From a virus (taxonomy: Duplodnaviria; Caudoviricetes): a stretch of DNA of 53,148 nt. Position 1 is the stretch's first letter; the number at the start of each line of letters is the position of its first letter. The stretch spans positions 1 through 53,148 of IMG/VR virus record IMGVR_UViG_3300037104_000199; one strand, given 5' to 3'. Both the position numbers and the translations under genes were made by a program. Below, piece after piece: positions 5,518 to 34,953 of this stretch. A model generated the notes under the pieces. The model made no database searches. It was given only the letters and a program-made list of their open reading frames with translations, and was not told the DNA's origin.

Positions 5518-5981
5518 TAAGCATCAATCTCCTTAATTTTATCTGTTTCTTGCGCCGAATTTAAGAAATCCCAATAAAGGGGACATTCAATCACATCAGC
5601 GCCTTCTTGGTACGAACAAATATAAGGAAGATAACACTTTAGTTTTCTTGCCTTAGGTTGTCTTATTTCCTTCCAGCATTTTCTTTGAAATTTACAAGGT
5701 ATAAATGTCTTAGTAGTAATTCGTCTTGGTTTAGATACATAGTTATCTACTAAAGCAATAACCCTAAATCCAGAATTAGTTGACACTACCTCCAAATTTT
5801 CTGGCGCATTATTTTTTGTATCACCATCAATATGCCTAACATCCTCATCCTGAGTCAGAGATCGTTCAAGTACCTTTTCCGCCACCAATATTTGTTCTGG
5901 TACATAGCCACCTCCTACTGCTCTTACATGACTCGGATCGTAAACAAGAACATAGTAGTCAATAATTCTCTCGCCTAACAT
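5517..5981 (-). CDS. degenerate HNH-like protein with Cys-rich C-terminus
   Basis: PEQILVAE..VRHIDGDTKNNAPENLEV resembles the EHR..VHHIDG..NN..NL HNH motif with His substitutions. Confidence 0.6.
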   Translation of the reverse strand: MLGERIIDYYVLVYDPSHVRAVGGGYVPEQILVAEKVLERSLTQDEDVRHIDGDTKNNAPENLEVVSTNSGFRVIALVDNYVSKPRRITTKTFIPCKFQRKCWKEIRQPKARKLKCYLPYICSYQEGADVIECPLYWDFLNSAQETDKIKEIDA

Positions 5982-8354: not shown

Positions 8355-8363
8355 AGGAGACTT

Positions 8364-9374
8364 ATGGTTAAGAAAAATACCCCTATAAATAATCAATCAG
8401 CTATTGATGCGGCCATTTCTCAGATTGAGAAGCAGTTTGGTATGGGCTCTATTATGCGCTTTGGGTCTATGGAAAGGCAGTCTGTAGATGTTATACCTAC
8501 GGGTTCTTTGGCTCTTGATGCCGCATTGGGTGTCGGGGGAATTCCTAGAGGTAGAATAACGGAAATTTATGGGTCTGAATCGGCTGGTAAGAGTACCCTC
8601 TGTCAACATATTCTAGCAGAGGCACAGAAGGCGGGGGGAAAAGTTGCTTACATAGATGTAGAGCAAACATTAGACCCTGCGTACGCAAAAGCGTGCGGAT
8701 TAGATATAGATGAAATGTACATCAGCCAGCCGGATACAGGAGAACAAGCTTTACAAATAGCAGAGCATCTTATTAACTCTGGAGCTATTACTTGTGTAAT
8801 TGTTGACTCTGTTGCCGCACTTTTACCCAAGGCTGAGATTGAGGGGGAGATTGGGGATTCCTATGTAGGTGTTCAGGCTCGTCTTATGAGTCAAGCTCTT
8901 AGAAAGTTAGCAGGAGCAGTCAATAGAACTAATACTGCCTTAATCTTTACTAATCAACTTAGAGAAAAGATTGGTTTTACCCGGGGAAATCCAGAAATTG
9001 TTTCCGGGGGGAAAGCTCTTAAGTACTATGCTAGTGTTCGGTTAGATGTGCGAAAAATTGAAACACTCCTAGTAGGAGACTCTTCTAGTGGCATACGTTC
9101 TAAGGTAAAGGTAGTCAAGAATAAAGTTGCCCCTCCCTTTAGAGTTGCTGAGTTTGATATCACTTTCGGTGAAGGAATTTCGCGCGAAGGGGATATTCTT
9201 GATATAGCTGTAGAGCATAAGTTAGTAGATAAGGCAGGAGCCTGGTACAGCTATGGTGAGACACGAGTAGGCCAGGGTAGGGAGCAAAGTAAGGAATATC
9301 TGCGTAACAACCCAGAGGTCCTTACAGGTTTAGAAAATCAACTAAGACATAAGTTATTTGGAGAGGAGCTTTAG
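8364..9374 (+). CDS. recA: RecA recombinase (full-length, bacterial type)
   Basis: [57 protein letters not shown]. Confidence 0.98.
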
Positions 9375-14388: not shown

Positions 14389-14691
14389 TTACCTCGTTTC
14401 GATGGGCGAGAGGACGCATCCAAGCTTGTCAGCTAAGGAGCCCGCGATGCGAGCCGTTATCGGGGCCTCGGCGTGCATCCTATCCTGGGCAAGCCACAGA
14501 CCCGAGACAATCAGGCTAATCTCGGCAGCTGTTAGGTAGCAAGCGAATTCGTACTCCCGCGCATGCGCAGTGGGGGTACCGCATGCAGGTAGCCGGGTGA
14601 CATGGTCGAGGCAATGGGGGCCATGCATAGGCCGATCTGGCGCGTCCTGTTCGGACGCGTAAATTCGGTCCAGTAGTGAGGTGGAGTCCAT
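14389..14691 (-). CDS. hypothetical protein (GC-rich island)
   Basis: AGGAGG RBS; GC-rich codon usage. Confidence 0.6.
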   Translation of the reverse strand: MDSTSLLDRIYASEQDAPDRPMHGPHCLDHVTRLPACGTPTAHAREYEFACYLTAAEISLIVSGLWLAQDRMHAEAPITARIAGSLADKLGCVLSPIETR

Positions 14692-14823
14692 GATCTAACC
14701 TCCTGCTATAAGGGCTGAGGTAGGGTCTAGAGCCTCAATTCTGGGCACGGGCGATTTCTGGGTTTGATTGTTGCGCGCCGATCCTATCGGCTGAGGTTAC
14801 TGATCGCTGGTCGCTGTAGCGTC

Positions 14824-15141
14824 CTAGACGGCCATAGCGGCGAGTAGGGCGTCTAGGTCATCTTGCGTCATACTCTTGACCTTTGCTCCTCGTGTTCCAC
14901 CCTCCACTATGATGGTGCGAGCGGCGAGGTTGACTCCTCGCAAGTCTGCCAGGGTCAACGGGATGGAGATTAGAGGTGCCTTGCCTGTTTCGACGTTGAC
15001 GGCGTTCTGCCGGACGACCTTGCCTTCGTCATCGCGGAAGGACGTTGCCTTGGCATTTGCAACAATGCCAGCAGCGCGAGAAGCAGCGGTAGCGCGGAGG
15101 GGACAGAGCCGGAAGTCAGAGGATCCAGTGAGAATAGCCAT
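14824..15141 (-). CDS. hypothetical protein (GC-rich island)
   Basis: GGAGG RBS; GC-rich codon usage. Confidence 0.6.
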   Translation of the reverse strand: MAILTGSSDFRLCPLRATAASRAAGIVANAKATSFRDDEGKVVRQNAVNVETGKAPLISIPLTLADLRGVNLAARTIIVEGGTRGAKVKSMTQDDLDALLAAMAV

Positions 15142-15567
15142 AGGAGATTCCTCCAGCCTATGCCCAAAATTGAGACTCTAGACTAGTGCCCTATACCGCG
15201 CGCGGGTACTGATTCCGACGAAGCGTAGGGGGCTATTCGACTTGTTAAGGTGCGCTGGGCCTATACGATCCGGCGCCGACCATTTCGGCGGACCGCGGAA
15301 ACGACTGGGACAAACATACACATAGACTCCGCCGAATGCAATACCTATTTTGAGGCGATTTTGGGCGGGCTTCCCAGCTGTAGCAGGCGTACAGCCCAAA
15401 ATCGCTCCAGGCGACCGAATCCAGAGATTTTGGGTGTACGTGCGTCTGGACAGGATGCGCGCCGTAGCGTGGCCCTACGGTCGTCATGTAGCGGTACCGC
15501 CGGCCGATCCACCGATCGGACACCCCACCGGCTGTAATGCCCCAGGACGATTCTGGGCGTCTCCTAC

Positions 15568-15627
15568 CCTCGGCCCATGCCGGGGCTGGCCGCGTTCCTG
15601 GCCCGCCGAAGCGTTCTCGACGAGTAG
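15568..15627 (+). pseudogene. C-terminal remnant of a DUF1778/TacA-like antitoxin
   Basis: Reads PRPMPGLAAFLARRSVLDE*; its TAG overlaps the GTG of the GNAT fragment, as in tacAT-type operons. Confidence 0.55.
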
Positions 15628-15893
15628 TGGGCCGCTACAGCCAGATCGAGCCGCTCGCGCCAACGCACCAGACCGACGCCTTCGATTGCGTCTCTGAGGC
15701 CCAATCCACGTGGTTGCGCCGCCACGGTCTGCAAGCTCATCGATCCGATACGTGCAAGGTGTACGTGGTCTGCCGGCGAGATGAACCCGCGGTGGCTGGT
15801 TACTACGCGCTGGCGGCCGGATCCGTAGGCCACGAGACGGCTCCGCCGCGCCCCAGTACCCTCCGGGAATTATCACCTATATGCAAGGAGTGA
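15627..15893 (+). pseudogene. truncated GNAT acetyltransferase toxin (TacT/AtaT family), N-terminal half
   Basis: IEPLAPTHQTDAFDC..WLRRHGLQ..KVYVV..VAGYYALAAGSV; similarity stops near 15853, before the acetyl-CoA-binding motif. Confidence 0.8.
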
Positions 15894-15946
15894 CATAAAG
15901 AAAACTTTATCCTTGCATTTATCTTTAATCTCTAGGTAACAGCAAC

Positions 15947-16378
15947 GTAACAGAAACTCAAATGAAAGACGGCTAGCATTATACTAATCATTTATTTATT
16001 TTGGTTAGTGTAAGTAACAGACTTTTATTTGAAAGACGGTTACGACTTTTGCGCGCCCAAAATGGGCTGACAATTCCCTATTCAATAATCCTAGTACAAC
16101 TATGCCCCAAAGGGGGGCATCATAAACATACAAATATCTTATTAACTATCTTTCTTTAGACTTTACAAGTAACAGAAATCAAAATGAAAGACGGCTAGGC
16201 GTAATTGAGTCTAAAGACTCCGTGCAAAATTCTTACTACCTAACCCCCGGCAAATCCCTATAACTAATTCCCTAGTATAACTATACCCCAAAAGGGGGCA
16301 AATAATACATGTACATAACTTATTAACTACATTTTCTTAGTTACTCTATGTAACAGAATTCAAAATGAAAGACGGTTA
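15947..16378 (+). repeat. four tandem GTAACAG-N9-TGAAAGACGGYTA elements (15947, 16014, 16169, 16350); the last two lie in longer related units
   Basis: Direct alignment; units also share CCTAGTAYAACTAT-CCCCAAA-GGGGGCA and CTTATTAACTA. Confidence 0.9.
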
Positions 16379-16594
16379 GCGTTTTATCTGTAAGTCAGCA
16401 GTATATATGGGTATAGGATTATCATCATTTATTTCAGGCGCGAATTGTACATAAACATATTTCCAATTATTATTACCACCAGATACACCTGTAAGAGTCC
16501 CTATACTACTAGGTACTAATTCACCCCCATAATTACTACCAATCCTATCTAGGATATTTACATCTTCCTTTATTCTTACAGTACCACCTATCAT
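16376..16594 (-). CDS. SH3/KOW-like miniprotein (array member)
   Basis: MIGGTVRIKE..SIGTL..YVQF..DLQIKR; paralog of 17761-17994. Confidence 0.7.
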   Translation of the reverse strand: MIGGTVRIKEDVNILDRIGSNYGGELVPSSIGTLTGVSGGNNNWKYVYVQFAPEINDDNPIPIYTADLQIKR

Positions 16595-16791
16595 TATGAC
16601 TTTCTCCTCATAACTTTTGCGCCCGAAAAAGAAATACAATAACAAGCGTTATCATGATCCATTCTTGCTTCAAATCCACAAGATATACCTACCATCATAA
16701 CTGTACCTACTTTATTTGCGGGGCAAGATTCATGAACACTAATAGTAGTAGTAATAATCCTATCACCAACTCTAAGCTAAGAAGGACGCAT
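16594..16791 (-). pseudogene. SH3/KOW-like miniprotein with in-frame TAG at codon 5
   Basis: MRPS*LRVGDRIITT..KVGTV..FSGAKVMRRKS; paralog of 18017-18238 and 19211-19426. Confidence 0.7.
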
Positions 16792-16987
16792 TATTATCCA
16801 CCTTATACTGTAGTAACCTAAGATAGATATAATCAGTAATTTCGGGCGCAAATTTCACACCAGCATAATGATATACAGGATTAGGGTCCCTTCTAATAAT
16901 AGTTTCAATTATACCTATAGTACCTCTCATTGAAGTTACCTCATACGTATCTTTAACTCTAACAGTCATGCCAATTTCAGGGCGCAT
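16772..16987 (-). CDS. SH3/KOW-like miniprotein (array member)
   Basis: MRPEIGMTVRVKD..GTIGII..VKF..LLQYK. Confidence 0.7.
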   Translation of the reverse strand: MRPEIGMTVRVKDTYEVTSMRGTIGIIETIIRRDPNPVYHYAGVKFAPEITDYIYLRLLQYKVDNNASFLA

Positions 16988-17208
16988 TATTTACTCCTAA
17001 GTACTTGAAAGTCATATGAAGAGAAACACCATCTATAGAGATATGCACTTCCTACAGGTTCCTCAAAAGTCGCCGCAAGAAAGTGTGGTCGTATTCCCCA
17101 ACCACCAATATTACAAGGTATCTCACTAACAGTACCTATACGCCCTCGAAGAAAATCCTTAGAATAAGTATCTTTGATTCTTATCTTGTCCCCAATTTTG
17201 ATTTCCAT
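16987..17208 (-). CDS. SH3/KOW-like miniprotein (array member)
   Basis: GGAGG RBS before MEIKIGDKIRIKD..GRIGTV..DFQVLR. Confidence 0.7.
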   Translation of the reverse strand: MEIKIGDKIRIKDTYSKDFLRGRIGTVSEIPCNIGGWGIRPHFLAATFEEPVGSAYLYRWCFSSYDFQVLRSK

Positions 17209-17240
17209 TTGTCCCTCCTGACTACCAATGTAAAGAATCT

Positions 17241-17277
17241 TTGACATTAAGTAAAGTAAACTTGACATTAAGTAAAT
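17241..17277 (+). repeat. short tandem repeat TTGACATTAAGTAAA x2
   Basis: Seen directly, with a third degenerate copy; upstream of the 17208 RBS. Confidence 0.6.
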
Positions 17278-17426
17278 TAAGCTCGACAACTACCTTAATG
17301 ACCTAAAAAGGTTAGATACTAACAAATGTATTTACTCTCTATGTGTTTTCTCTTATATAGAATATGTACATCTTTGTTGCCCCCTTTTCTAGAAACTCTA
17401 TAGAACACTTAGTAGAGAAACCCTTG

Positions 17427-17633
17427 CTACTCTTCAGAAGGGGTATTCTCCTTTAGTAAGAGTAATTCCGATGGGTCGAAGATACCACGCGTTCCATCGG
17501 AATCAAATCTAATACTATAGAATGAAGTACTACTAGATGTAATTGTACCAATACCCTTAGCAACATAATAAGAGAAGTATATGCCCTCCTTTACTTTCAC
17601 TTTCCTACCTAGATACTTATCATTAGGTTTCAT
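17427..17633 (-). CDS. SH3/KOW-like miniprotein (array member)
   Basis: LGRKVKVKE..GIGTI..YSIRFD..FDPSELLL. Confidence 0.7.
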   Translation of the reverse strand: MKPNDKYLGRKVKVKEGIYFSYYVAKGIGTITSSSTSFYSIRFDSDGTRGIFDPSELLLLKENTPSEE

Positions 17634-17705
17634 TTAGTTACACTCCTTACTATTACCTGTAATATTGATGCCCCAAAAATGGGCAAGTATTACTTACCTA
17701 TATCT

Positions 17706-17763
17706 TATTAACTGTATTTCTTTACTAGACTTAAGTAACAGAGCATTTATTGAAAGACGATTA
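17706..17763 (+). repeat. TATTAAC-N22-GTAACAG-N9-TGAAAGACGA element
   Basis: Same spacing as the copies at 16140 and 16321. Confidence 0.85.
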
Positions 17764-17994
17764 ATGCTTTATTTGTAAATCATGTACAAATACAGCGATA
17801 TTATTATGAGGTAGGTCACTAAATTTTACATATATAACAGGAGCCCTGCTATGGTTAGTATACATACTAGGGCATCTTACAATAGTGCCTATGGACCCAT
17901 TATACAGTGGACACACACCTATACGTTCTCTGATAAGTACGCCCTCTTTTATCCTTACTGTATCCCCTACTCTTAATTCACTGTATTTCATCAT
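17761..17994 (-). CDS. SH3/KOW-like miniprotein (array member)
   Basis: LRVGDTVRIKE..SIGTI..YVKF..DLQIKH. Confidence 0.72.
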   Translation of the reverse strand: MMKYSELRVGDTVRIKEGVLIRERIGVCPLYNGSIGTIVRCPSMYTNHSRAPVIYVKFSDLPHNNIAVFVHDLQIKH

Positions 17995-18016
17995 GCTCCT
18001 TCGCAGGTATTACTAT

Positions 18017-18238
18017 TTACCTCTTTCTGACTTTTGCGCCCGAAAATTCCACACAAGTAGGACTAGAACCAGTGTTTAGACTATCAAAAGTAGCATCAAA
18101 TAAAGTCCACCTGCCACTTCTACAAGGAACATACATAACAGTACCAATAGAGCCTATAGGTACAGTCTCTAAAGTAATGTAGGGAAGTCTTTTAGTAGTG
18201 ATAATAGTATCATCTACATTTAGATCACTTGGACGCAT
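18017..18238 (-). CDS. SH3/KOW-like miniprotein (array member)
   Basis: MRPSDLNVDDTIITT..SIGTV..FSGAKVRKR. Confidence 0.7.
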   Translation of the reverse strand: MRPSDLNVDDTIITTKRLPYITLETVPIGSIGTVMYVPCRSGRWTLFDATFDSLNTGSSPTCVEFSGAKVRKR

Positions 18239-18461
18239 TTGTTGCCCCATTTCTTTGAACTTGTAATTCTCTAGCATTAAAAGTCTTACTATCAGTATAC
18301 CCAGCCAGTAGAACACTAATAGGGTTTGACATCCAATAGTCACTACTAATCTCAGTAATCTTACCCAAGAGTCCTACCACTAAGCTAGTGTCTGTGTACA
18401 GACCACTACTGCTATGTATACAGGGCTTTACTCTCACCCTCATTCCTACCTCTGGAACCAT
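18225..18461 (-). CDS. SH3/KOW-like miniprotein (array member)
   Basis: AGGAGG RBS; MVPEVGMRVRVK..GLLGKI..FNARELQ; paralog of 19655-19873. Confidence 0.72.
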   Translation of the reverse strand: MVPEVGMRVRVKPCIHSSSGLYTDTSLVVGLLGKITEISSDYWMSNPISVLLAGYTDSKTFNARELQVQRNGATNASK

Positions 18462-18507
18462 TGTAACCTCCTGTAATTATTGCGCCCTAATTAGTATACC
18501 TATAAAC

Positions 18508-18565
18508 TATTAACTGTAAATTCTCAGTGTTGTTAAGTAACAGAACCTATTCTGAAACACGACTA
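18508..18565 (+). repeat. TATTAAC-N22-GTAACAG-N9-TGAAACACGA element
   Basis: Same fixed spacing. Confidence 0.8.
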
Positions 18566-18753
18566 GGCTTGAAAACTAGATGACGCTTAAAGTGTACATA
18601 CATTTTACCATCAGGTTTTTTTAGGTAGACTAAGTTAGAACCTGGGGCAGAACCAAAAGACTCTATTACACCTTCTGTATTTATAGGGCAGTAGCTTTCA
18701 TTATAACCTAGACCACCTTTTACTTTTACCCTATCCCCAATCCTTGGTTCCAT
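18547..18753 (-). CDS. SH3/KOW-like miniprotein (array member)
   Basis: MEPRIGDRVKVK..TEGVI..HL. Confidence 0.68.
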   Translation of the reverse strand: MEPRIGDRVKVKGGLGYNESYCPINTEGVIESFGSAPGSNLVYLKKPDGKMYVHFKRHLVFKPSRVSE

Positions 18754-18981
18754 TTAACTTCCCCGCAATCTTTCTAGGCTATCTGCCCTAAGATCAATCA
18801 TTTCCGAATAACCTTCGGATTGAATCCAGTAGAATACTGTAGAGTCCTGCCTCGTGTGTTCATGACCAAGCTTCTCTTTACAGTTTTGTACTATTACACC
18901 TTTAGTATGTGCTTCTAATTGGGGGTACCTACCATACAGAGTATGCTTATTTCTTACTATTGTTCCATTAGGAATTATCAT
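18754..18981 (-). CDS. SH3/KOW-like miniprotein (array member)
   Basis: IPNGTIVRNK..TKGVI..YWI..DSLE. Confidence 0.62.
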   Translation of the reverse strand: MIIPNGTIVRNKHTLYGRYPQLEAHTKGVIVQNCKEKLGHEHTRQDSTVFYWIQSEGYSEMIDLRADSLERLRGS

Positions 18982-19214
18982 CTTTGGTGCCCCCTAAATT
19001 GTAGTTCTTTTGCGCAATAATAACCAGATAATCCATTATTATCCCAAGTTACTCTAATAGGCCATTGCCTATGCCAAGGATACTCAAAACCTGGGGAAGT
19101 GTAATCTACTAGAAATCCAGTAATAGTACCTATACTACCTACTACACATTTTCTATAAGGTCTTAATTTATTAGGATAAGAAAGCCTTACCTTCATACCT
19201 AATTCGGGTGTCAT
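18978..19214 (-). CDS. SH3/KOW-like miniprotein (array member)
   Basis: MTPELGMKVRL..SIGTI..VTWDN..YCAKELQF. Confidence 0.72.
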   Translation of the reverse strand: MTPELGMKVRLSYPNKLRPYRKCVVGSIGTITGFLVDYTSPGFEYPWHRQWPIRVTWDNNGLSGYYCAKELQFRGHQR

Positions 19215-19426
19215 TTAGCTCTCTTAACTTTTGCGCCACTAAAGAATACACAAGAGTTCATTTTAGAAAAATCCGTCATAGCTTGAAAACAACCATTTCT
19301 ATCAGAACAACAATTACAGGTTACTAGGGAATCAACTGTACCTTCCATACCCACAGGAACTGAGTTAAATACAGACGCTCCTGTAGTTATAATTCTATCG
19401 CCATCTTTTAGTTCAGAAGGACGCAT
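19211..19426 (-). CDS. SH3/KOW-like miniprotein (array member)
   Basis: MRPSELKDGDRIITT..MEGTV..FSGAKVKR. Confidence 0.72.
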   Translation of the reverse strand: MRPSELKDGDRIITTGASVFNSVPVGMEGTVDSLVTCNCCSDRNGCFQAMTDFSKMNSCVFFSGAKVKRAK

Positions 19427-19662
19427 TACTTACACCTTTTCTTAATCTGAAGTCTCCATTGATAAACGCTATCAACTACACCATTATCAAACTGTACAGT
19501 ACATAGGAAATTTCCTACAGTAGTTTCATTAAGCCTCTCAGTATAGGATTCAGTTGGAACAACAGTTCCTTCAGTAAATTTGGGGATTCTACAATACTCA
19601 TTATCTGAGTATCTAGTCTTTATTCTTACTCTGGTACCTACTGGAATTGTATTCTTAGACAT
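19426..19662 (-). CDS. SH3/KOW-like miniprotein (array member)
   Basis: IPVGTRVRIK..TEGTV..VQFDNG..RLQI. Confidence 0.7.
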   Translation of the reverse strand: MSKNTIPVGTRVRIKTRYSDNEYCRIPKFTEGTVVPTESYTERLNETTVGNFLCTVQFDNGVVDSVYQWRLQIKKRCK

Positions 19663-19873
19663 TTTCGCGCCGAAATTGTAATTCATCTAAACGAAAGCCC
19701 TTAATGTCGAAGAAACCTTCTAATTGCACACTTATACCCTCGCTGTTAAAGTAGTAATCTAAACTAGAAATAACCCCCACTAATCCAATAGATAGACTGT
19801 GATCAGCATAGCGACCATCAACGCTATGAGTACATTTCTTAAGTCTAACACTCATACCAACTTTTGGTACCAT
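19655..19873 (-). CDS. SH3/KOW-like miniprotein (array member)
   Basis: MVPKVGMSVRLK..GLVGVI..FRLDELQF. Confidence 0.7.
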   Translation of the reverse strand: MVPKVGMSVRLKKCTHSVDGRYADHSLSIGLVGVISSLDYYFNSEGISVQLEGFFDIKGFRLDELQFRRENV

Positions 19874-19875
19874 AA

Positions 19876-20103
19876 TCAACCTCTCTTTATCCAAAGGAAT
19901 TTCTTCTCTACACACTGCCCCCTAAATCCTTCTGGGACCCCATCAAAATGAATATACAAACCTTTTCCGAATACATGTCTTGGGTCACTAAGAGGGTTTA
20001 TACTGAAGGGGCATTGTAAACTTACAATATCCCCTTCAGTACCAGCCTTATAGGTGAATAAATCCTCTTTAAGTTTTACCCTATCACCTAGGTTAATGGT
20101 CAT
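19876..20103 (-). CDS. SH3/KOW-like miniprotein (array member)
   Basis: MTINLGDRVKLK..TEGDI..IHFDG..FL. Confidence 0.68.
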   Translation of the reverse strand: MTINLGDRVKLKEDLFTYKAGTEGDIVSLQCPFSINPLSDPRHVFGKGLYIHFDGVPEGFRGQCVEKKFLWIKRG

Positions 20104-20104
20104 T

Positions 20105-20437
20105 TTAGTAAATGTCCGGGGTAATGTCCTTAGGGCCAAGAGTAACCTTAATGCCACCCATATCGTCCTCATAATCCTCTTCGTCGCCTTCACTAAAATC
20201 AACAAATTCCTTGTAACCAAATCCCTGAGCAGTAATAGTATCGCGAAGACCAAACTCAATCTTAGTTCGGGTACCCAAAACCTCTCCATCAGCTTCTACA
20301 AGGTAGTACGCAACCTTACTTAGAATAAACTGCTCCATTGGAATCTTAGAAGTTACGATGTTATCTCTAACATACTCATCGACCATCTCAAAAACCATCG
20401 GGGGAAAAGTAACCGTAATACGAACCATCTTAGACAT
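20105..20437 (-). CDS. hypothetical acidic protein, possible ribbon-helix-helix N-terminus
   Basis: AAGGAG RBS; RITVTFPPMVFEMVDEY pattern. Confidence 0.55.
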   Translation of the reverse strand: MSKMVRITVTFPPMVFEMVDEYVRDNIVTSKIPMEQFILSKVAYYLVEADGEVLGTRTKIEFGLRDTITAQGFGYKEFVDFSEGDEEDYEDDMGGIKVTLGPKDITPDIY

Positions 20438-20438
20438 T

Positions 20439-20861
20439 TTATTGCTCCTTTCTATACATTTTTAGCATTTCAGTAATAAAACTACTATACATATCTTCTT
20501 GCCACTTTGGAAACTCGGCATCCTCAGTAAAGCACTCTTTTACACTGCTATAGAAACAATCAAAAACCTCTATACTGTAGTTAGCATAATTCTCATACTC
20601 AGTAGCCAACTTTCGCATCCAAGGTCGCCACCTATATTTGAGAATAATATCCGTTGAATGGTAGTATTTCCTATGGCAAGATTGGCAAGAGGTTGTTCCA
20701 TACTTGCCCCACAAATCATGGTAGTTGAATAGGCACCTAACTGGCTGCAAGAAACTGTACACTCTATACACTATCTTGGGCAGTTCATAACCCTGCATAA
20801 AATAATATAGCCCCTTTCCCCGCCTAGTAGCTGTACATTTCTTTAGAAAATGGGGCATCAT
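20439..20861 (-). CDS. hypothetical protein
   Basis: AGGAGG RBS. Confidence 0.6.
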   Translation of the reverse strand: MMPHFLKKCTATRRGKGLYYFMQGYELPKIVYRVYSFLQPVRCLFNYHDLWGKYGTTSCQSCHRKYYHSTDIILKYRWRPWMRKLATEYENYANYSIEVFDCFYSSVKECFTEDAEFPKWQEDMYSSFITEMLKMYRKEQ

Positions 20862-20891
20862 AAGTCCTCCTATATATAGCTACCTATAAAC

Positions 20892-20949
20892 TATTAATTA
20901 ATTTTCTTAGACTGTTTTATGTAACAGCATCAACTATGAAAGACGGTTA
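20892..20949 (+). repeat. TATTAAT-N22-GTAACAG-N9-TGAAAGACGG element
   Basis: Same fixed spacing. Confidence 0.85.
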
Positions 20950-20977
20950 CGCTGGAGCATACTTAAATGGCTGCCAC

Positions 20978-21205
20978 CTATTCCCCGCCTTCCTTATCTT
21001 GTAGAATCCAATTTACTTTTGACTTATTTAGGATGTTTTCTTGCTGATTTCTTTGAGCCCACAAAAAGTGCTCATCACAATACAGTACTGACCATACACC
21101 TATCTGCATATTGTGCAGAACTACTACATGTGTAGCATCCCTAGAACACTTGTTCTGTAATTCCCAAGACTCTGTAACATACAGATCACATTGAGGAATA
21201 GCCAC
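20978..21205 (-). CDS. hypothetical protein
   Basis: Coupled ORF; C..C..CDEH pattern. Confidence 0.5.
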   Translation of the reverse strand: MAIPQCDLYVTESWELQNKCSRDATHVVVLHNMQIGVWSVLYCDEHFLWAQRNQQENILNKSKVNWILQDKEGGE

Positions 21206-21414
21206 TACTTCTCACGCAAAAATTGTAAGACTCTGGGGCTGTAATTATAGTGTGCGTCTGGGTAATCATCCCATAAAACAAACCATGTTTGGTCCCCAGC
21301 ATAATTGAAACCAGGCTTTTCTATAATACCTAAAACACCATTCTTACTAGGCTCCGCATAATCATAAGGGTTTGGGGCATTTAATCTAACCCGCATTCCA
21401 ACTTCAGGTTTCAT
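21205..21414 (-). CDS. SH3/KOW-like miniprotein (array member)
   Basis: AGGAGG RBS; MKPEVGMRVRL..VLGII..VLWDD..VLQF. Confidence 0.72.
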   Translation of the reverse strand: MKPEVGMRVRLNAPNPYDYAEPSKNGVLGIIEKPGFNYAGDQTWFVLWDDYPDAHYNYSPRVLQFLREK

Positions 21415-21562
21415 TTAGCTCCTCCTACTAAACTGTAAACGGTTTACAAAAACTACAGGATAAAGATGAGAACCTGCTGTGGATTCTCTATCCATCAAAA
21501 CTTTTACTATATAAGTCTCATACATAGGTAAGGTGGAACTAGTTGTAGTTTAGTAGTTTTAT

Positions 21563-21599
21563 CTAGGGCACTATATCAGGAGGTAATATAGTGCCCTAG
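21563..21599. terminator. 14-bp hairpin (terminator or processing site)
   Basis: CTAGGGCACTATAT / ATATAGTGCCCTAG; no clear U-tract. Confidence 0.5.
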
Positions 21600-21608
21600 C
21601 GACAAATA

Positions 21609-22421: not shown

Positions 22422-23252
22422 CTAAGTAGCAACATTATCCCAACCTACCTTTCCGCGCATATTAACACCATAAGACTCTCCCTTATCAAGATCAAACTGA
22501 AGATCAGTCCACCTGAGAATTTCAATATCTTTTGCTGCTTCATCGCGCAAAGTTTGTGGGACTTCTTTACCCTCATCACGAAGCTTCTCAATAAGAGCAT
22601 AATTCTTATCCACACTAAGGGTGTACTTTCGGTACATCATAAGTGCGGAAAGAATCCACATAGCAGATGCCATATTAGCAGTAATAAGCTGCTCTCCACC
22701 CTCTAATGCAGCAATTGCTGCACAAGTCATGGTAGCTCTATCTGCTCCCTTATTTGAAATTTCTTGATGAAGGAAAGTAAGGACAGGGGTAATATTTTCC
22801 CCGCCCTTTCTCACCCACAATTGACAAGAACCTGTACTAACCTCATTGCCTCCATTAATAACTACAGCGTTATCAAGTGTCAAGCAATGAGACTGAATAA
22901 GAGCCCTAACTGGATAATTATCTACACCAATAAGGACAGTACATCCATCAGTAATAAGCTGATCAATATTGTCCTTACCAAGGTATTCATTGACGGGAAA
23001 AACCTTGTTAGTTTCACTATACCGACTTGCAGAAGCTACGGCCTTATTTGCCTTAATAGCTGACTCATCATATAGCTGCCTATCAAGATTCTTTTCCTCA
23101 ACATCATCACCATCAACAAGAAGCAATTCCCAAGTATTTTGGGCATTACGATAATGGGTTGTAAGGAAGCGGATTAATGGGTCAAGCAAGAAAGACCCGG
23201 TGCCTCCAATTCCCACAAGAACATATTTGTCATTTTCCATATTGCTTTCCAA
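22422..23252 (-). CDS. ThiF/E1-like ubiquitin-activating enzyme
   Basis: VGIGGTGS, LVDGDDVEEKNLDRQ, KA, GVDN..R, GGN, and TCA..EQ...N (candidate catalytic Cys). Confidence 0.9.
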   Translation of the reverse strand: MESNMENDKYVLVGIGGTGSFLLDPLIRFLTTHYRNAQNTWELLLVDGDDVEEKNLDRQLYDESAIKANKAVASASRYSETNKVFPVNEYLGKDNIDQLITDGCTVLIGVDNYPVRALIQSHCLTLDNAVVINGGNEVSTGSCQLWVRKGGENITPVLTFLHQEISNKGADRATMTCAAIAALEGGEQLITANMASAMWILSALMMYRKYTLSVDKNYALIEKLRDEGKEVPQTLRDEAAKDIEILRWTDLQFDLDKGESYGVNMRGKVGWDNVAT

Positions 23253-23253
23253 A

Positions 23254-24474
23254 TTACTCTCCTATGTAATCCTCAACCTCATCCACAGGCTGATTAAGCA
23301 TTGTAGACAATGTTGAAGTTGTTAGAACCTTATCCTTTTCAGAATCTGCTGAGGGATCAATAACTTCCCCCACCATAAAGCTAATAACATAGCCTGCCTT
23401 TTCGCACTCCTTATTAAGCTTCTTAGCAAGGAGTTCAATAGCTTCAGGCCAGTATTCAGGCTTAATCTTTCCGGTACGGACGGACTCTAACCATTTCTTA
23501 GGAACACTTATACCTAACTGCGAAGAGTAAGCACTACCTGACCCTGCAGTATAACCATCATAAGAATCCGGCCAGGAATCTTCATTCCCACCTTGCCAAC
23601 CCTTATACCACTTATTTGCGCGGGACTTATCCAAACCCCAATTCTGATTTGTAGTACTCTTTACAAATTGACCAACTGTTTGAGCAGTAGGCTTCTTAAC
23701 TAGGGAGTACCACCATTCAGGAATTCCAACATCTTCAAGTCCCACAACATCAGCAACCTCTTCAATCTTGTAATTGAAGTTACTTCCGCCAAGGGAAATC
23801 ATTGATGCAAATTCCATCTGCTTATAGTCTGTAACATGCCCCACAGTAATGTGTAGACCATCAAAAGTCTTAGCATCATGTGTATCTGTTCCAGAATGGA
23901 ATGCAGAAAAGACTGGATGGGAATGGACTGATCCTACTAAACTATACCCTGAAGGAATCTTAGTTGCATCAAAAGTATAATCGACACTTGCTCCCCCACA
24001 AATCTGCACAGGAACAAATACCTTGTATTCCTTAGTAGTAGTGTTAAAGAGAAGCATAACCTCTGCTTCCGTCTGGATTCTAGAATAGACGCCCCTAAAA
24101 AAGGAGACAATCTGATTCATGATAGCCAGGGGGATAATCGGGGCATCTTCATAATTATGCCAGAAAAGTCCACCCTTATGCTTAGGATCAACTGTACCTA
24201 AAACAGTGGGATGTTCCTTTGTGGGCATAATTGCTCTACCAAAAGCAAAATGCTTGTAGTAATACCAACCCTGCGCAGTAGGCACAAAATAAGGGCCATT
24301 ATCTGGCTGAGGAAGATCATAAAAGTCCCCATTGAACTTGGTATAAATATCAAGCAATCCTGGGGCTTCAATTACTGCTGCCTCTACAACTTCTAACACA
24401 GTTTCAATTTCCACAGGAAGATGAGTAGCTTCCCCAACAATTTCAACCTTAGGAAGGGTTTTCTTTTTGGTCAT
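23254..24474 (-). CDS. JAB/MPN+ metalloisopeptidase (prokaryotic JAB)
   Basis: TEA..VPVQ..ASVDY..GSVHSHPVFSAFHSGTDTHD..GLHITVG. Confidence 0.9.
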   Translation of the reverse strand: MTKKKTLPKVEIVGEATHLPVEIETVLEVVEAAVIEAPGLLDIYTKFNGDFYDLPQPDNGPYFVPTAQGWYYYKHFAFGRAIMPTKEHPTVLGTVDPKHKGGLFWHNYEDAPIIPLAIMNQIVSFFRGVYSRIQTEAEVMLLFNTTTKEYKVFVPVQICGGASVDYTFDATKIPSGYSLVGSVHSHPVFSAFHSGTDTHDAKTFDGLHITVGHVTDYKQMEFASMISLGGSNFNYKIEEVADVVGLEDVGIPEWWYSLVKKPTAQTVGQFVKSTTNQNWGLDKSRANKWYKGWQGGNEDSWPDSYDGYTAGSGSAYSSQLGISVPKKWLESVRTGKIKPEYWPEAIELLAKKLNKECEKAGYVISFMVGEVIDPSADSEKDKVLTTSTLSTMLNQPVDEVEDYIGE

Positions 24475-24701
24475 AACAACTCCAAAATTTGGATGCTGGT
24501 TAGGGGTGCATTTTTCCCATAGGTAATAGAACTAGCAATTTGCGTGAAATCCTTAGAAAAAACTCTTAATCCTGCCTTACTCTGTGTTTCAGAAAGTTCT
24601 GGCAGTTTCTCAAAAGTTTCCATAAGCTGTTCCATAGTTTCGGGGAAATCTTTAACCCCTAGAGACGAAACCCTAAGAAAATCAGGTGTAGTGTCAGCCA
24701 T
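24471..24701 (-). CDS. small hypothetical protein within the Ubl cassette
   Basis: Translationally coupled on both sides. Confidence 0.6.
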   Translation of the reverse strand: MADTTPDFLRVSSLGVKDFPETMEQLMETFEKLPELSETQSKAGLRVFSKDFTQIASSITYGKNAPLTSIQILELL

Positions 24702-25537
24702 TAAGCAGTAACCTCTTCTTCAAAGTCTTCCCAGACCTCTTCCTCAGTATTAAACTCTTCAACTTCCACAAATTCAGGGGTAGTTGCAGAAACTGCGGCA
24801 GGAATTTCTGCACAACCTTCAATGGTAATGCTCTCCTTTGGATTGTAGAAAGACAAGAACCTAATAAAGCCTGACAACTTTCCTGCTCGGTACTCATTAG
24901 GAATATTATCCCACCAATCCCACTTAAGAGCAACAAGTGGATCAGCTTTTGTTGCAACTGCCCATTCCCTAAATGTTTCATAGGGCTCAGGAATATTCCA
25001 ACCTAAATCAGCATTAAACACAGAAGCAGGGGTAAAGAACTGATTGACAATTGTATCAACCCTTTCATCTAATTCCAGATTACCCTGAGGGGCAGTACCA
25101 CCAAAACAAATTCGTCCATAATCCCTGTAGACATTGGGGAGTCTTGCAGGGATAACTGTTTGATCCAAAGTCTTCAATCTCTTCTGTGACCAGAAAAGAC
25201 TAACATCATCTATGCGCCACTTGATATTAGGATATGTAACATTGGCAACTTCCGAAAAAGGGAATACCATATACTGAAAGGGCATGGAAAGATACAAGCC
25301 TGCTTTCATTGCACTAGTCTTGATGAATTGCGGCCCTGGGTCAATCTCAACAACAAGATGAATCTTCTTATTTTCCTGGTAGTAAAATCGGCAGTTCTTA
25401 GGAATTCTAGGCAGAACAATAGCTTGTAAAGCAGGCATTTCTGAAAGGGCAGTCTTTAAGCTGACTACCTTTTCAATAGTAGTGCGCTCAATAAAAGCTA
25501 CCCCACCCTCAATTACAATTCTTTTCTTTTCTGGCAT
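24701..25537 (-). CDS. prokaryotic E2-like (UBC-fold) conjugating protein
   Basis: PARLPNVYRDYGRICFG (PNV..G.IC.G active-site Cys) and FF...FNADL; position between Ubl and JAB. Confidence 0.8.
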   Translation of the reverse strand: MPEKKRIVIEGGVAFIERTTIEKVVSLKTALSEMPALQAIVLPRIPKNCRFYYQENKKIHLVVEIDPGPQFIKTSAMKAGLYLSMPFQYMVFPFSEVANVTYPNIKWRIDDVSLFWSQKRLKTLDQTVIPARLPNVYRDYGRICFGGTAPQGNLELDERVDTIVNQFFTPASVFNADLGWNIPEPYETFREWAVATKADPLVALKWDWWDNIPNEYRAGKLSGFIRFLSFYNPKESITIEGCAEIPAAVSATTPEFVEVEEFNTEEEVWEDFEEEVTA

Positions 25538-25561
25538 TTCTTCTCCTCAGTGGGGGAATAG

Positions 25562-25595
25562 TTAAGGGGTGTACCTTTTACAATACACCCCTTAA
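25562..25595. promoter_or_regulatory. 12-bp hairpin between the Ubl and E2 genes
   Basis: TTAAGGGGTGTA / TACACCCCTTAA. Confidence 0.6.
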
Positions 25596-25612
25596 GCTAC
25601 TTAGGCTAAATC

Positions 25613-25822
25613 TTAGCCCTTAGAACCGGAAGGGCGCGCGAAAATAACCTCATCTCCACTTCGAGTAGTGTAATACTCATCCGTAGGAACACTATTAACG
25701 TATGCAGTAGCATCCGAAGGAATACCCATAATATCCTTAAGATTTGCTCGAAGATTACGAATAGTCGTGCAAGCAAAGGTGGCGTTAGTAAAGCTAGAGG
25801 CACCAGAAGAAACAGTAACCAT
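25613..25822 (-). CDS. ubiquitin-like (beta-grasp) protein ending in Gly
   Basis: 69 aa; AYVNS.P..Y....GDEVIF pattern of ThiS/MoaD-like folds; C-terminus SGSKG; AAGGAG RBS. Confidence 0.78.
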   Translation of the reverse strand: MVTVSSGASSFTNATFACTTIRNLRANLKDIMGIPSDATAYVNSVPTDEYYTTRSGDEVIFARPSGSKG

Positions 25823-34924: not shown

Positions 34925-34953
34925 GTAACAGCAACCAAAATGAAAGGCGGTTT
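34925..34953 (+). repeat. isolated GTAACAG-N9-TGAAAGGCGG element
   Basis: gtaacag caaccaaaa tgaaa ggcgg. Confidence 0.7.

What the first reader, a model, noticed from the sequence alone, without database searches (positions are those of the whole stretch)
16376..21414. Array of about 15 diversified SH3/KOW-like miniproteins
Seen: 65-80-aa ORFs sharing a frame G[DMT]x[VI][RK][VIL]K...G[TVI][IV]...[VI]x[FW]...L[QE] with highly variable loops. Subfamilies recur (three MRPS..FSGAKV, two VRIKE..DLQIK, two MVP.VGM, two MxPExGMxVRL). The order element + VRIKE + MRPS + PExGM occurs twice (16350-16987 and 17735-18461), indicating module duplication. Inference: a scaffold-plus-variable-loop binder repertoire for anti-defence or host takeover, expanded via the repeat. 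The SH3-like fold is predicted by eye. With the repeat, this is a leading candidate for an undescribed system.
Basis: partly seen in the sequence, partly recalled or inferred. Interest (0 to 1): 0.82.

Follow-up and report, generated by a model that had tools for sequence, protein, structure and literature searches.

The report
Tandem array of phage SH3-fold miniproteins
An uncultivated peat phage carries sixteen side-by-side copies of a tiny SH3-type barrel protein gene that have drifted far apart, a real and unusual family expansion whose job, most likely binding other proteins, is still unknown.

Summary
On the minus strand, 16376-21414 carries 15 intact genes of 68-78 aa and a 16th copy with an in-frame TAG at codon 5. 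All are one family. Three unrelated ORFs (20105-21205) interrupt the array. There are no further copies in the 53-kb viral contig.

Two divergent members fold as five-stranded SH3-like barrels (pLDDT 79 and 89). No member reaches a Pfam or PHROG threshold. The family profile does hit eukaryotic proteins with tandem Mind-bomb SH3 repeats (SH3_15; hhalign probability 96%). It also weakly hits PsaE and HERC2.

The paralogues are old: 35-50% identity within subfamilies and long tree branches. Some duplications predate the split from a related phage fragment (L081), which has a different complement at the same site, after a ThiF gene.

The intergenic "repeat" looks like a promoter in front of three gene blocks. 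It does not look like a duplication engine.

Recent substitutions are not enriched in loops (p=0.38). There is no reverse transcriptase in the window and no TAG recoding.

Function is inferred only: small protein-binding modules from the replication/accessory arm, probably for host takeover or counter-defence. I rate this a new variant of a known kind, of moderate interest.

The parts
21205..21414 (-). g01, 69 aa, MxPExGM type; first family member, separated from the rest by three unrelated ORFs
   Evidence: E 7.8e-22; orthologue in L081 at 51% identity
20105..21205 (-). three unrelated ORFs inside the span (75 aa Cys-rich 20978-21205; 140 aa 20439-20861; 110 aa 20105-20437)
   Evidence: no family match; no Pfam hit; only a weak PHROG hit of unknown function for the 75-aa ORF; the 75-aa and 110-aa ORFs have orthologues in L081, the 140-aa ORF does not
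19876..20103 (-). g02, 75 aa (MTINLGDRVKLK...)
   Evidence: sister-phage orthologue P0012 at 96%
19655..19873 (-). g03, 72 aa, MVPxVGM type
   Evidence: 50% identical to g09; P0015 at 90%
19426..19662 (-). g04, 78 aa (..VGTRVRIK..LQIKK)
   Evidence: only member with weak DUF4314 (E 0.027) and PHROG hits
19211..19426 (-). g05, 71 aa, MRPS..FSGAKV type, five Cys
18978..19214 (-). g06, 78 aa, MxPExGM type; modelled
   Evidence: AlphaFold2 pLDDT 78.9, five strands; fold matches
18754..18981 (-). g07, 75 aa, most divergent member
   Evidence: E 1.2e-15; long branch
18547..18753 (-). g08, 68 aa (MEPRIGDRVKVK...)
18225..18461 (-). g09, 78 aa, MVPxVGM type; first gene after the element at 18497-18565
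18017..18238 (-). g10, 73 aa, MRPS type; modelled
   Evidence: AlphaFold2 pLDDT 88.6; best matches are canonical SH3 domains, TM 0.57-0.68
17761..17994 (-). g11, 77 aa, VRIKE..DLQIK type
   Evidence: 37% identical to g16
17427..17633 (-). g12, 68 aa; first gene after the element at 17695-17763
   Evidence: P0032 at 94%
16987..17208 (-). g13, 73 aa (MEIKIGDKIRIK...)
   Evidence: groups with the MRPS clade at 85/83 support
16772..16987 (-). g14, 71 aa, MxPExGM type
   Evidence: relatives P0037, P0046 and P0060 at 49-57%
16594..16791 (-). g15, third MRPS copy with an in-frame TAG at codon 5 (16777-16779); probable pseudogene
   Evidence: 46% identical to g05 and 42% to g10; no sign of TAG recoding
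16376..16594 (-). g16, 72 aa, VRIKE..DLQIK type; last gene of the array
   Evidence: P0027 at 99%
20881..20949 (-). intergenic element, promoter-like, ahead of orfB140, orfC110 and g02-g08
   Evidence: TA[AG]CCGTCTTTCA-N9-CTGTTAC, about 21 nt, AGTTAATA..TATAGGTA, then AGGAGG and ATG
18497..18565 (-). intergenic element ahead of g09-g11; overlaps the 3' end of g08
   Evidence: TTTACA-16-TATACT, 10 of 12 matches
17695..17763 (-). intergenic element ahead of g12-g16
15947..16378 (-). four further element copies (cores at 16350, 16169, 16014 and 15947) in an ORF-free stretch downstream of g16; two carry a GCCCCC-TTTT-GGGG hairpin

Best explanation
This is a lineage-specific multigene family of stand-alone SH3-fold beta-barrel proteins. 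Fifteen genes are intact and one is interrupted. It lies in the replication/accessory arm of an uncultivated phage of roughly 120 kb from peat metagenomes.

The genes arose by old tandem and segmental duplications and have since diverged to 35-50% identity or less. They are packed with overlapping or abutting stop and start codons, and nearly all have ribosome-binding sites. They sit in three blocks, each preceded by a conserved promoter-like element.

The family is a distant single-domain relative of the Mind-bomb-type SH3 repeat (Pfam SH3_15), which belongs with KOW-like and DUF4314-like small barrels.

Inferred mechanism: each miniprotein is a small protein-binding module. The conserved strands make the barrel and the divergent loops and surfaces give each copy its own target. 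After infection the set binds and redirects or blocks host (or phage) proteins, for host takeover or counter-defence.

Shown: family, fold, gene organisation, remote homology and turnover between related phages. Inferred: that they bind proteins, when they are made, and what they bind.
For: Family and genes:
- 16 profile matches, all inside the array.
- Cross-subfamily profiles rank family members first among 505 ORFs.
- SD-like sequences lie upstream of nearly all genes, and gaps between genes are -17 to +2 nt within blocks.

Fold:
- Models have pLDDT 78.9 and 88.6, with five or more strands.
- Best matches are PetP, YorP, CPH, Mind bomb REP, KOW, Tudor and canonical SH3.
- In BFVD the matches are many small phage proteins, including four labelled DUF4314.

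Remote homology:
- The profile search of 1.84 billion representatives gave 140 hits at E<=1e-3. The top ones are multi-repeat proteins.
- 8 of the 9 scanned carry Pfam SH3_15. Where sources give a name, it names eukaryotes: fish KEG-like E3 ligases, Cafeteria 'Mind bomb SH3 repeat' proteins and a dinoflagellate.
- hhalign of A2 against repeat units cut from 7 of them gives probability 96.4, E 1.2e-9, over 57 columns covering strands 1-5.

Accessory character:
- The related fragment L081 keeps the flanking genes (ThiF 80%, others 55-76%). It has an extra MRPS gene before g01, non-orthologous ORFs in place of orfB140, and g01 at only 51%.
- One copy here is interrupted by a stop.
- Net charges range from -2.5 to +5.7, so the surfaces differ.

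Context: PolA, primase, RNR, RecA, DnaB, RuvB-like, Endo VII and dNMP kinase. No structural genes are in the window.

Recalled, not tested: SH3-fold domains of this group act mainly as peptide- or protein-binding modules.
Against: - There is no direct evidence of binding, of timing of expression, or of any target.
- No member matches a characterised anti-defence or host-takeover protein. 0 of 15 reach a Pfam threshold, and 14 of 15 have no PHROG hit at E<=0.1 or 0.01.
- Strand-conserved, loop-variable patterns are what any old small-barrel family shows.
- Recent substitutions between orthologues are not enriched outside the strands: 6/92 against 20/196, p=0.38.
- Family members are only slightly more diverged between the two phages (51-52%) than a neighbouring unrelated ORF (55%).
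- The host is unknown.
- No RNA run holding the region was listed, so expression is unverified.
Confidence: 0.4

Rival explanations
1. The miniproteins bind nucleic acid, as KOW, Tudor, Sm or Sso7d-like barrels do. They would modulate transcription, translation or RNA stability of host or phage.
For: Fold matches include NusG and Spt5 KOW domains (Z 6.5-7.5), ribosomal L21e/L24-type proteins and a PWWP domain bound to ssDNA. One member has a weak KOW6_SPT5 hit (E 0.026). 13 of 16 have net positive charge at pH 7.
Against: Charges are modest and not uniform, from -2.5 to +5.7, and three members are acidic. The best sequence-level relatives (SH3_15, HERC2, PsaE) are protein-binding domains. No Pfam KOW (PF00467) hit was listed for any of the 15 members.
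Confidence: 0.2
2. The genes encode subunits that assemble with each other. This would be a tandem-repeat SH3 protein split into separate, translationally coupled polypeptides that form a scaffold or multivalent binder.
For: The closest profile hits are proteins with up to 17 tandem copies of the domain. Two-domain forms exist among small relatives, such as P0017 (137 aa) and P0078. Start and stop codons overlap within blocks. The subfamily order PExGM-MRPS-VRIKE recurs.
Against: No interaction was tested between members. Recurring order is equally explained by segmental duplication. Gene complements differ between related phages and one copy is interrupted, which fits poorly with an obligate assembly.
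Confidence: 0.1
3. The array works with the phage's ubiquitin-like conjugation genes just upstream, either as substrate-recognition adaptors or as conjugation targets.
For: An operon lies 0.8-4.4 kb upstream on the same strand. It encodes a 69-aa ubiquitin-like protein (residues 17-39 match ubiquitin 19-41; summed E 1.3e-14 on polyubiquitin chains, but only about 1.5 on single ubiquitin). It also encodes a JAB protein and a ThiF/E1-like protein. ThiF followed by the array is also seen in L081. In eukaryotes SH3_15 repeats occur in E3 ligases; hits here carry RING, TRIM coiled-coil, SPRY or a 'KEG-like E3' name.
Against: L081 is a relative of the same phage, so the shared order is not independent evidence. 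No E2 or E3 catalytic domain was found: the 278-aa ORF has no Pfam or PDB match. Family C-termini carry no Gly-Gly.
Confidence: 0.08
4. They mimic the small SH3-like subunits of photosynthetic or respiratory complexes (PsaE, NdhS, PetP) and dock on host electron-transfer complexes.
For: The A2 profile's best solved-structure hits are cyanobacterial PsaE (E 3.3e-4). NdhS and PetP hits are weaker (E 0.077 and 0.11). PetP is the top Foldseek hit (E 3.3e-3) and scores Z 8.3 in VIA-align.
Against: The matches rest on the generic GDxVRxK...GxVGTV strand motif and cover only profile positions 1-55. No photosynthesis gene is in the window. RecA's best matches are Chloroflexota MAGs, not cyanobacteria (the search is pattern-biased). 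The runs holding the phage are labelled peat metagenomes.
Confidence: 0.03
5. The array is decaying baggage: duplicated ORFs with little or no present function.
For: One copy has a premature stop. Complements differ between relatives. The region borders a foreign GC-rich island.
Against: 15 of 16 frames are open, with start codons and mostly SD sequences. Sister-phage orthologues keep 84-99% identity with open frames. Core residues are conserved across old paralogues. Models are confident.
Confidence: 0.05

Closest known systems
Pfam SH3_15 (PF18346), the Mind bomb SH3 repeat (REP) domain
   Same: Same small barrel with the GDxVRVK ... GxVGTV ... L strand pattern. The family profile finds SH3_15-bearing proteins as its top hits. 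Profile-profile probability is 96.4% over 57 columns. Mind bomb 1 REP structures match the model at Z 7.3-7.4.
   Different: No single member reaches the Pfam threshold (0 of 15). Here the domain stands alone as a 68-78 aa protein encoded by 16 separate phage genes. In SH3_15 proteins it occurs as tandem repeats inside large proteins that, where a source names them, are eukaryotic and E3-ligase-type. The loops here are longer and more variable.
DUF4314 (PF14192), a small SH3-like domain of phage and plasmid proteins
   Same: Small barrel common in phage proteins. Four BFVD structural matches carry this label. One member (g04) and one multi-repeat relative (P0013) hit it weakly.
   Different: The best member score is 14.9 bits against a cut-off of 27, so membership is not met. 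I found no paper on DUF4314: 0 papers hold the term.
YorP of Bacillus subtilis prophage SPbeta (PDB 2heq)
   Same: A stand-alone SH3-like protein of about 70-84 aa from a phage genome, of unknown function. Foldseek E 4.7e-3, TM 0.56-0.60; VIA Z 7.2.
   Different: No YorP family hit in Pfam scans of 15 members. That YorP is single-copy rather than in an array is recalled, not checked here.
PsaE, NdhS and PetP, small SH3-like subunits of cyanobacterial complexes
   Same: Stand-alone barrels of 60-75 aa with the same N-terminal strand motif. They are the best solved-structure matches by sequence profile (PsaE E 3.3e-4) and by fold (PetP).
   Different: The alignment covers only the first three strands. 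The genomic context has nothing photosynthetic.
KOW motif domains (NusG, Spt5, ribosomal L24)
   Same: The GDxVxV...G..G.V strand-turn-strand and the barrel; Z 6.5-7.5.
   Different: 11-22 residues separate the two motif halves here, where KOW has a short turn (recalled). No PF00467 hit was listed.
Host-takeover module of Bacillus phage SPO1 (recalled from the literature, not searched here)
   Same: A block of many small genes with repeated promoters in a non-structural region of a large phage.
   Different: As I recall it, the SPO1 genes are unrelated to one another; here all are paralogues of one fold.

Membership tests
SH3-like small beta-barrel fold | Five-stranded, partly open barrel of about 60-80 residues | tested here: met
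   g06 model has 5 strands, pLDDT 78.9. g10 model has pLDDT 88.6. Matches to SH3-fold domains have TM 0.55-0.68 and Z up to 9.1. Foldseek E-values are only 3e-3 to 2e-2, and the VIA tool notes that a best Z of 7-8 is common.
Pfam SH3_15 (Mind bomb SH3 repeat) | Single sequence scores at or above the gathering cut-off (24 bits) | tested here: not met
   0 of 15 members list SH3_15 even at E<=1
Pfam SH3_15 (Mind bomb SH3 repeat) | Profile-level homology to bona fide SH3_15 repeats | tested here: met
   Top profile hits carry SH3_15 in 8 of 9 scanned. hhalign probability 96.4, E 1.2e-9. The repeat units were located with the family's own profile, which favours the register.
Pfam SH3_15 (Mind bomb SH3 repeat) | Occurs as tandem repeats within one polypeptide, typically in E3 ligases | tested here: not met
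   All 16 copies are separate ORFs with their own starts and stops
DUF4314 (PF14192) | Score at or above 27 bits | tested here: not met
   1 of 15 members hits, at 14.9 bits, E 0.027
KOW (PF00467) | KOW motif recognised by the Pfam model | tested here: not met
   No PF00467 hit. One member hits KOW6_SPT5 at E 0.026.
PsaE / NdhS / PetP | Full-length similarity and a photosynthetic host or gene context | tested here: inconclusive
   The profile hits PsaE at E 3.3e-4 over positions 1-55 only. No photosynthesis genes appear among the 40 window ORFs scanned. The host is unknown.
Diversity-generating retroelement target array | Reverse transcriptase and a template repeat near the variable genes | tested here: not met
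   No RT domain among the 40 ORFs scanned. No long near-identical repeat in 15900-21600. The window is only about 44% of the genome, so an RT elsewhere is not excluded.
Known anti-defence or host-takeover proteins | Similarity to a characterised inhibitor | tested here: inconclusive
   No named family appears in Pfam, PHROGs, PDB or BFVD matches. No dedicated anti-defence library was available.

The most novel reading that the evidence does not exclude
The sixteen stand-alone SH3_15-like miniproteins are a natural repertoire of target-recognition modules. They would work with the phage's own ubiquitin-like conjugation operon just upstream (ubiquitin-like protein, JAB peptidase, E1-like ThiF). 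This would be an E3-like substrate-selection layer split into separate small genes. Each copy would direct, or receive, modification of a different host or phage protein. It would also give a viral counterpart to the SH3 repeats of eukaryotic Mind-bomb or KEG-type ligases.
Probability: 0.08. Interest if true: 0.85.

Novelty: new variant of a known kind. Interest (0 to 1): 0.5.

Why it matters
Phage genomes rarely keep large paralogous families, so sixteen diverged copies of one 70-residue fold imply sustained selection for many versions of one scaffold.

The family has no Pfam or PHROG assignment. It was found only in this phage lineage: the contig itself, plus contigs of at most 4.9 kb.

Its nearest sequence relatives are the Mind-bomb SH3 repeats of eukaryotic E3 ligases. 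That makes it a compact test case for how phages use small binder domains. It may also bear on where that domain came from.

The position next to a phage-encoded ubiquitin-like system makes a specific hypothesis directly testable.

If the proteins turn out to be ordinary accessory proteins, the value is limited to a new family definition.

Tried and rejected
- TAG recoding as an explanation for the in-frame TAG in g15 (and another in the Cys-rich ORF of L081): rejected. TAG ends 38 of 107 minus-strand ORFs. Reading TAG through adds no more ORF length than reading TAA through (19,242 against 19,261 aa).
- Diversity-generating retroelement: no RT and no template-like repeat.
- Loop-focused recent diversification: no enrichment. 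There are only 26 substitutions and strand assignment was borrowed from one model, so power is low.
- Relatives in isolated phages: blastn of 5.2 kb and tblastn of g11 (E<=1) against 50,697 records found nothing.
- Relatives in IMG/VR contigs: three scans found none.
- The element pattern in IMG/VR found one contig (L082) with no protein similarity to the window, taken as chance.
- The first metagenome scan confirmed nothing because the confirming sequence was too distant. The second found L081.
- Word-indexed protein search: 8 hits, 6 of them the window's own.
- ESM Atlas: only unnamed clusters, plus one DUF8139 cluster at 0.91. Pfam scans of the 15 members did not list DUF8139.
- Host assignment failed. 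DnaB and RNR tblastn gave only distant hits below 40% identity and the 442-aa ORF gave none. RecA matches unannotated fragments at up to 62% and Chloroflexota MAGs at 60-71% in a pattern-biased scan.
- Expression: no RNA holder was listed among 10 runs.
- Complex prediction of the ubiquitin-like protein with g01, g05 and g11: no verdict, score 0.01 against a mark of 0.32. This is not evidence either way.
- Literature: 'DUF4314' gave 0 papers and 'YorP'+'SH3' gave 0 papers. A five-term search on phage, SH3-like, paralogous and tandem gave 68 papers; 15 were listed (listing only) and none had a title on such arrays. A search on phage-encoded Ubl, JAB, ThiF and SH3 gave 5 papers (listing only), none relevant. 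In PMC5512222 (polyvalent proteins) a term search for SH3, DUF4314, beta-barrel, Tudor and adaptor found 0 occurrences.

Full report
**What the window is.** The window is a complete IMG/VR viral record of 53,148 bp. CheckV rates it 44% complete, which implies a genome of roughly 120 kb (my inference). GC content is about 39% and nearly all genes are on the minus strand.

Pfam scans of 40 larger or neighbouring ORFs found:
- DNA polymerase A, primase, class II-type ribonucleotide reductase, RecA and DnaB
- a RuvB-like ATPase, endonuclease VII, a PD-(D/E)XK nuclease and a dNMP kinase
- RNA ligase and two phosphatases
- three HNH endonucleases and one LAGLIDADG endonuclease
- a ThiF/E1-like and a JAB protein

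No structural gene and no reverse transcriptase was found. The array therefore lies in the replication/accessory arm. Ten public runs from seven studies hold parts of the region. Nine are labelled peat metagenome and one carries no organism label. Only one holds half or more of the sampled words. The host is unknown.

**The observation.** Fifteen minus-strand ORFs of 68-78 aa between 16376 and 21414 align with a shared frame. Column counts are G6 14/15, an aliphatic residue at position 9 in 15/15, R10 10/15, K12 11/15, G29 15/15, an aliphatic at 31 in 15/15, L71 12/15 and Q72 9/15.

A six-frame scan of the whole record with the family profile gave 16 matches at E<=0.01, all inside the array. 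The 16th, read in frame, is MRPS*LRVGDRIITT...FSGAKVMRRKS. This is a third MRPS-type copy at 16594-16791 with TAG at codon 5, where the other two copies have E or D.

The first 15 matches are by construction, so I trained profiles on single subfamilies and searched all 505 stop-to-stop ORFs of at least 40 aa.
- The PExGM, VRIKE and 'other' profiles ranked 5, 9 and 9 other family members ahead of the first unrelated ORF. Best E-values were 4e-4, 6e-5 and 2e-5.
- The MRPS profile was weak: g13 scored 0.047, then an unrelated ORF scored 0.088.
- The tree nevertheless joins the MRPS clade (support 100/98) to the g13 type at 85/83, and the MRPS model is a confident SH3 barrel.

Nearly all genes have an SD-like sequence. 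Within blocks the gaps between genes run from -17 to +2 nt. Three unrelated ORFs (20105-21205) separate g01 from g02.

**Fold.** AlphaFold2 on g06, with a 26-row alignment, gave pLDDT 78.9 and five strands. On g10, the MRPS type, it gave pLDDT 88.6.
- Foldseek found no match at E<=0.001.
- The best rows for g06 are PetP (3.3e-3), YorP, CPH domains, PsaE, NdhS, Tudor and SH3 domains.
- The best rows for g10 are almost all canonical SH3 domains, TM 0.57-0.68.
- VIA-align against 48,161 chains gave the Hpy99I N-terminal domain (Z 9.1), PetP (8.3), CPH (7.7), KOW (7.5), Mind bomb REP (7.3-7.4) and YorP (7.2). The tool warns that a best Z of 7-8 is common.
- In BFVD the matches are many small uncharacterised phage proteins, four of them labelled DUF4314.

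Both divergent subfamilies therefore share one SH3-like barrel.

**Relatives.** No member reaches a Pfam cut-off. The best results among 15 are KOW6_SPT5 at E 0.026, DUF4314 at 0.027 and Tudor_3 at 0.036. Only g04 has weak PHROG hits, all to families of unknown function.

The family profile against 1.84 billion representatives found 140 proteins at E<=1e-3.
- The top ones are long proteins with up to 17 matched stretches.
- 8 of the 9 I scanned carry Pfam SH3_15, the Mind bomb SH3 repeat. These come with RING, TRIM coiled-coil, SPRY, Neuralized or calpain domains. One carries DUF4314 instead.
- Where sources give a name, it names eukaryotes: fish (one 'E3 ubiquitin-protein ligase KEG-like'), Cafeteria ('Mind bomb SH3 repeat domain-containing protein') and a dinoflagellate.
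- hhalign between the family alignment and repeat units cut from seven of these proteins gave probability 96.4%, E 1.2e-9, over 57 columns spanning all strands. The units were located with the family's own profile, which favours the register.
- Against solved structures, the profile hits cyanobacterial PsaE (E 3.3e-4, positions 1-55), a thiocyanate hydrolase subunit, HERC2, NdhS and PetP.

I read this as a remote, single-domain branch of the Mind-bomb/KOW-like group of SH3 barrels. It is not a member of any curated family.

**Distribution and turnover.** About twenty hits are single-domain proteins of 66-89 aa.
- Five are orthologues from a sister phage at 84-99% identity: P0012, P0015, P0020, P0027 and P0032.
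- Others are at 36-60%: P0037, P0045, P0046, P0060, P0085 and P0107.
- The ten I looked up sit in clusters of one or two members. Apart from the window's own contig, they lie on contigs of 940-4,875 bp.
- Nothing was found in 50,697 isolated-phage records or in three IMG/VR scans.

One metagenome contig, L081 (4,118 bp), is a syntenic piece of a related phage. In order it holds:
- ThiF (80% identity) and three small ORFs (65-76%)
- an MRPS gene that the window lacks at that place
- the g01 orthologue (51%)
- the Cys-rich ORF (64%, with an in-frame TAG)
- two ORFs with no counterpart in the window
- a 187-aa ORF whose C-terminal part is the orthologue of orfC110 (55%) and whose N-terminal part weakly matches the family (E 0.026)
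- another MRPS gene at the contig end

In the tree both L081 MRPS genes fall inside the MRPS clade, one of them with g05 at 93/90 support. Those duplications therefore predate the split of the two phages. The region gains, loses and breaks genes, as accessory regions do.

**Age of the duplications.** The closest paralogue pairs are g03-g09 (50%), g15-g05 (46%), g15-g10 (42%), g05-g10 (41%), g16-g11 (37%) and g01-g06 (35%). Terminal branches have a median of 0.7 changes per site and 15 of 27 inner branches are unresolved.

At DNA level only short motif-coding stretches and the element itself are alike. This points to old segmental duplication, not recent repeat-driven expansion.

**The repeat.** On the coding strand the element reads TA[AG]CCGTCTTTCA-N9-CTGTTAC, then about 21 nt, then AGTTAATA..TATAGGTA. 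In three copies this is followed within 25-60 nt by a ribosome-binding site and the ATG of orfB140, g09 and g12. The core occurs 9 times in the window at up to 3 mismatches, against 0.09 expected. One copy contains a TTTACA-16-TATACT match. A degenerate copy sits at a comparable place in L081.

I take it as a promoter or regulatory site that divides the array into three transcription units. This is an inference. Four further copies lie in an ORF-free stretch just downstream of g16.

- Conservation is higher in strand columns (top residue-class frequency 0.56) than elsewhere (0.29). The two long loops vary from 11-22 and 8-26 residues. Any old small-barrel family looks like this.
- Between four orthologue pairs, 6 of 92 strand positions and 20 of 196 other positions differ (p=0.38). 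The sample is small and strand positions were borrowed from one model.
- Net charges run from -2.5 to +5.7, so the surfaces have diverged.
- There is no reverse transcriptase or template repeat in the window.
- TAG is an ordinary stop here.

**Explanation.** Shown: a real, old, lineage-specific multigene family of stand-alone SH3-fold proteins. It is organised in three promoter-headed blocks in the non-structural arm and turns over between related phages. Inferred: the proteins act as small protein-binding modules with different targets, used after infection for host takeover or counter-defence (confidence about 0.4).

Rivals are:
- nucleic-acid binding of the KOW/Tudor kind (0.2)
- mutual assembly as a split repeat protein (0.1)
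- a link to the upstream ubiquitin-like operon (0.08)
- decay without function (0.05)
- mimicry of PsaE/NdhS/PetP (0.03)

**Novelty and score.** Small SH3-like phage proteins of unknown function are known as a class (DUF4314, YorP). An array of sixteen diverged paralogues, remotely related to the Mind-bomb repeat, was not found in the papers or databases I could search. I rate it a new variant of a known kind, with interest 0.5. It is a genuine and unusual expansion with a testable side hypothesis, but there is no evidence yet of a new system.

Noticed in passing
window 14400-15900: A 1.5-kb island of 56-68% GC sits in a 39% GC phage, directly downstream of the array. It is not an assembly chimera. 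Contigs of run X1 bridge both junctions. A contig of run X3, from another study, joins the same phage flanks to a diverged version of the island. In the 40 differences shown, 26 of the 34 that fall inside the two minus-strand ORFs (14389-14691, 14824-15141) lie at third codon positions, and 0 of the 6 between them do (my count). The island is therefore coding and probably acquired from a high-GC organism. Its ORFs have no Pfam hit.
   Followed up: partly
window 22422-25822, minus strand: A ubiquitin-like conjugation operon. It holds a 69-aa ORF whose residues 17-39 match ubiquitin 19-41, a 278-aa ORF with no match, a 76-aa ORF, a 406-aa JAB protein and a 276-aa ThiF/E1-like protein. ThiF is conserved at 80% in L081.
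   Followed up: partly
window 15947-16378, and 34925-34950: Four copies of the promoter-like element lie in 430 bp without any ORF. Two are followed by a GCCCCC-TTTT-GGGG hairpin and TAGTTATACTAGG, so they could drive small RNAs. In run X3 a contig skips 15972-16169, meaning the copy number varies between strains. One more core copy lies at 34925.
   Followed up: partly
window 16777-16779; L081 about 2265: There are in-frame TAG codons in two otherwise conserved small genes of this phage lineage: g15 here and the Cys-rich ORF in L081. TAG recoding was tested and not supported.
   Followed up: yes
window 47787-50138: DnaB is 783 aa. Its N-terminal domain matches at residues 11-105 and its C-terminal domain at 554-781, leaving about 450 unmatched residues between them. 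This may be an intein. The window is rich in homing-type endonucleases: HNH at 1757-2227, 5517-5981 and inside 6786-8354, and LAGLIDADG at 42909-43574.
   Followed up: no
window 6786-9374, plus strand: The only sizeable plus-strand block holds an IMPDH/GMP-reductase-like protein with an HNH insert, and a full RecA. RecA's best matches in species genomes are Chloroflexota MAGs at 60-71% identity (the search is pattern-biased, so this is only a weak host hint).
   Followed up: partly
window 17209-17426: A 218-nt gap between g12 and g13 holds a 21-nt tandem duplication (17230-17271) that contains TTGACA on the plus strand.
   Followed up: no
proteins P0017 (137 aa) and P0078/P0143: Two-domain fusions of the family exist on short metagenome contigs. 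The domain can therefore be concatenated outside this phage.
   Followed up: no
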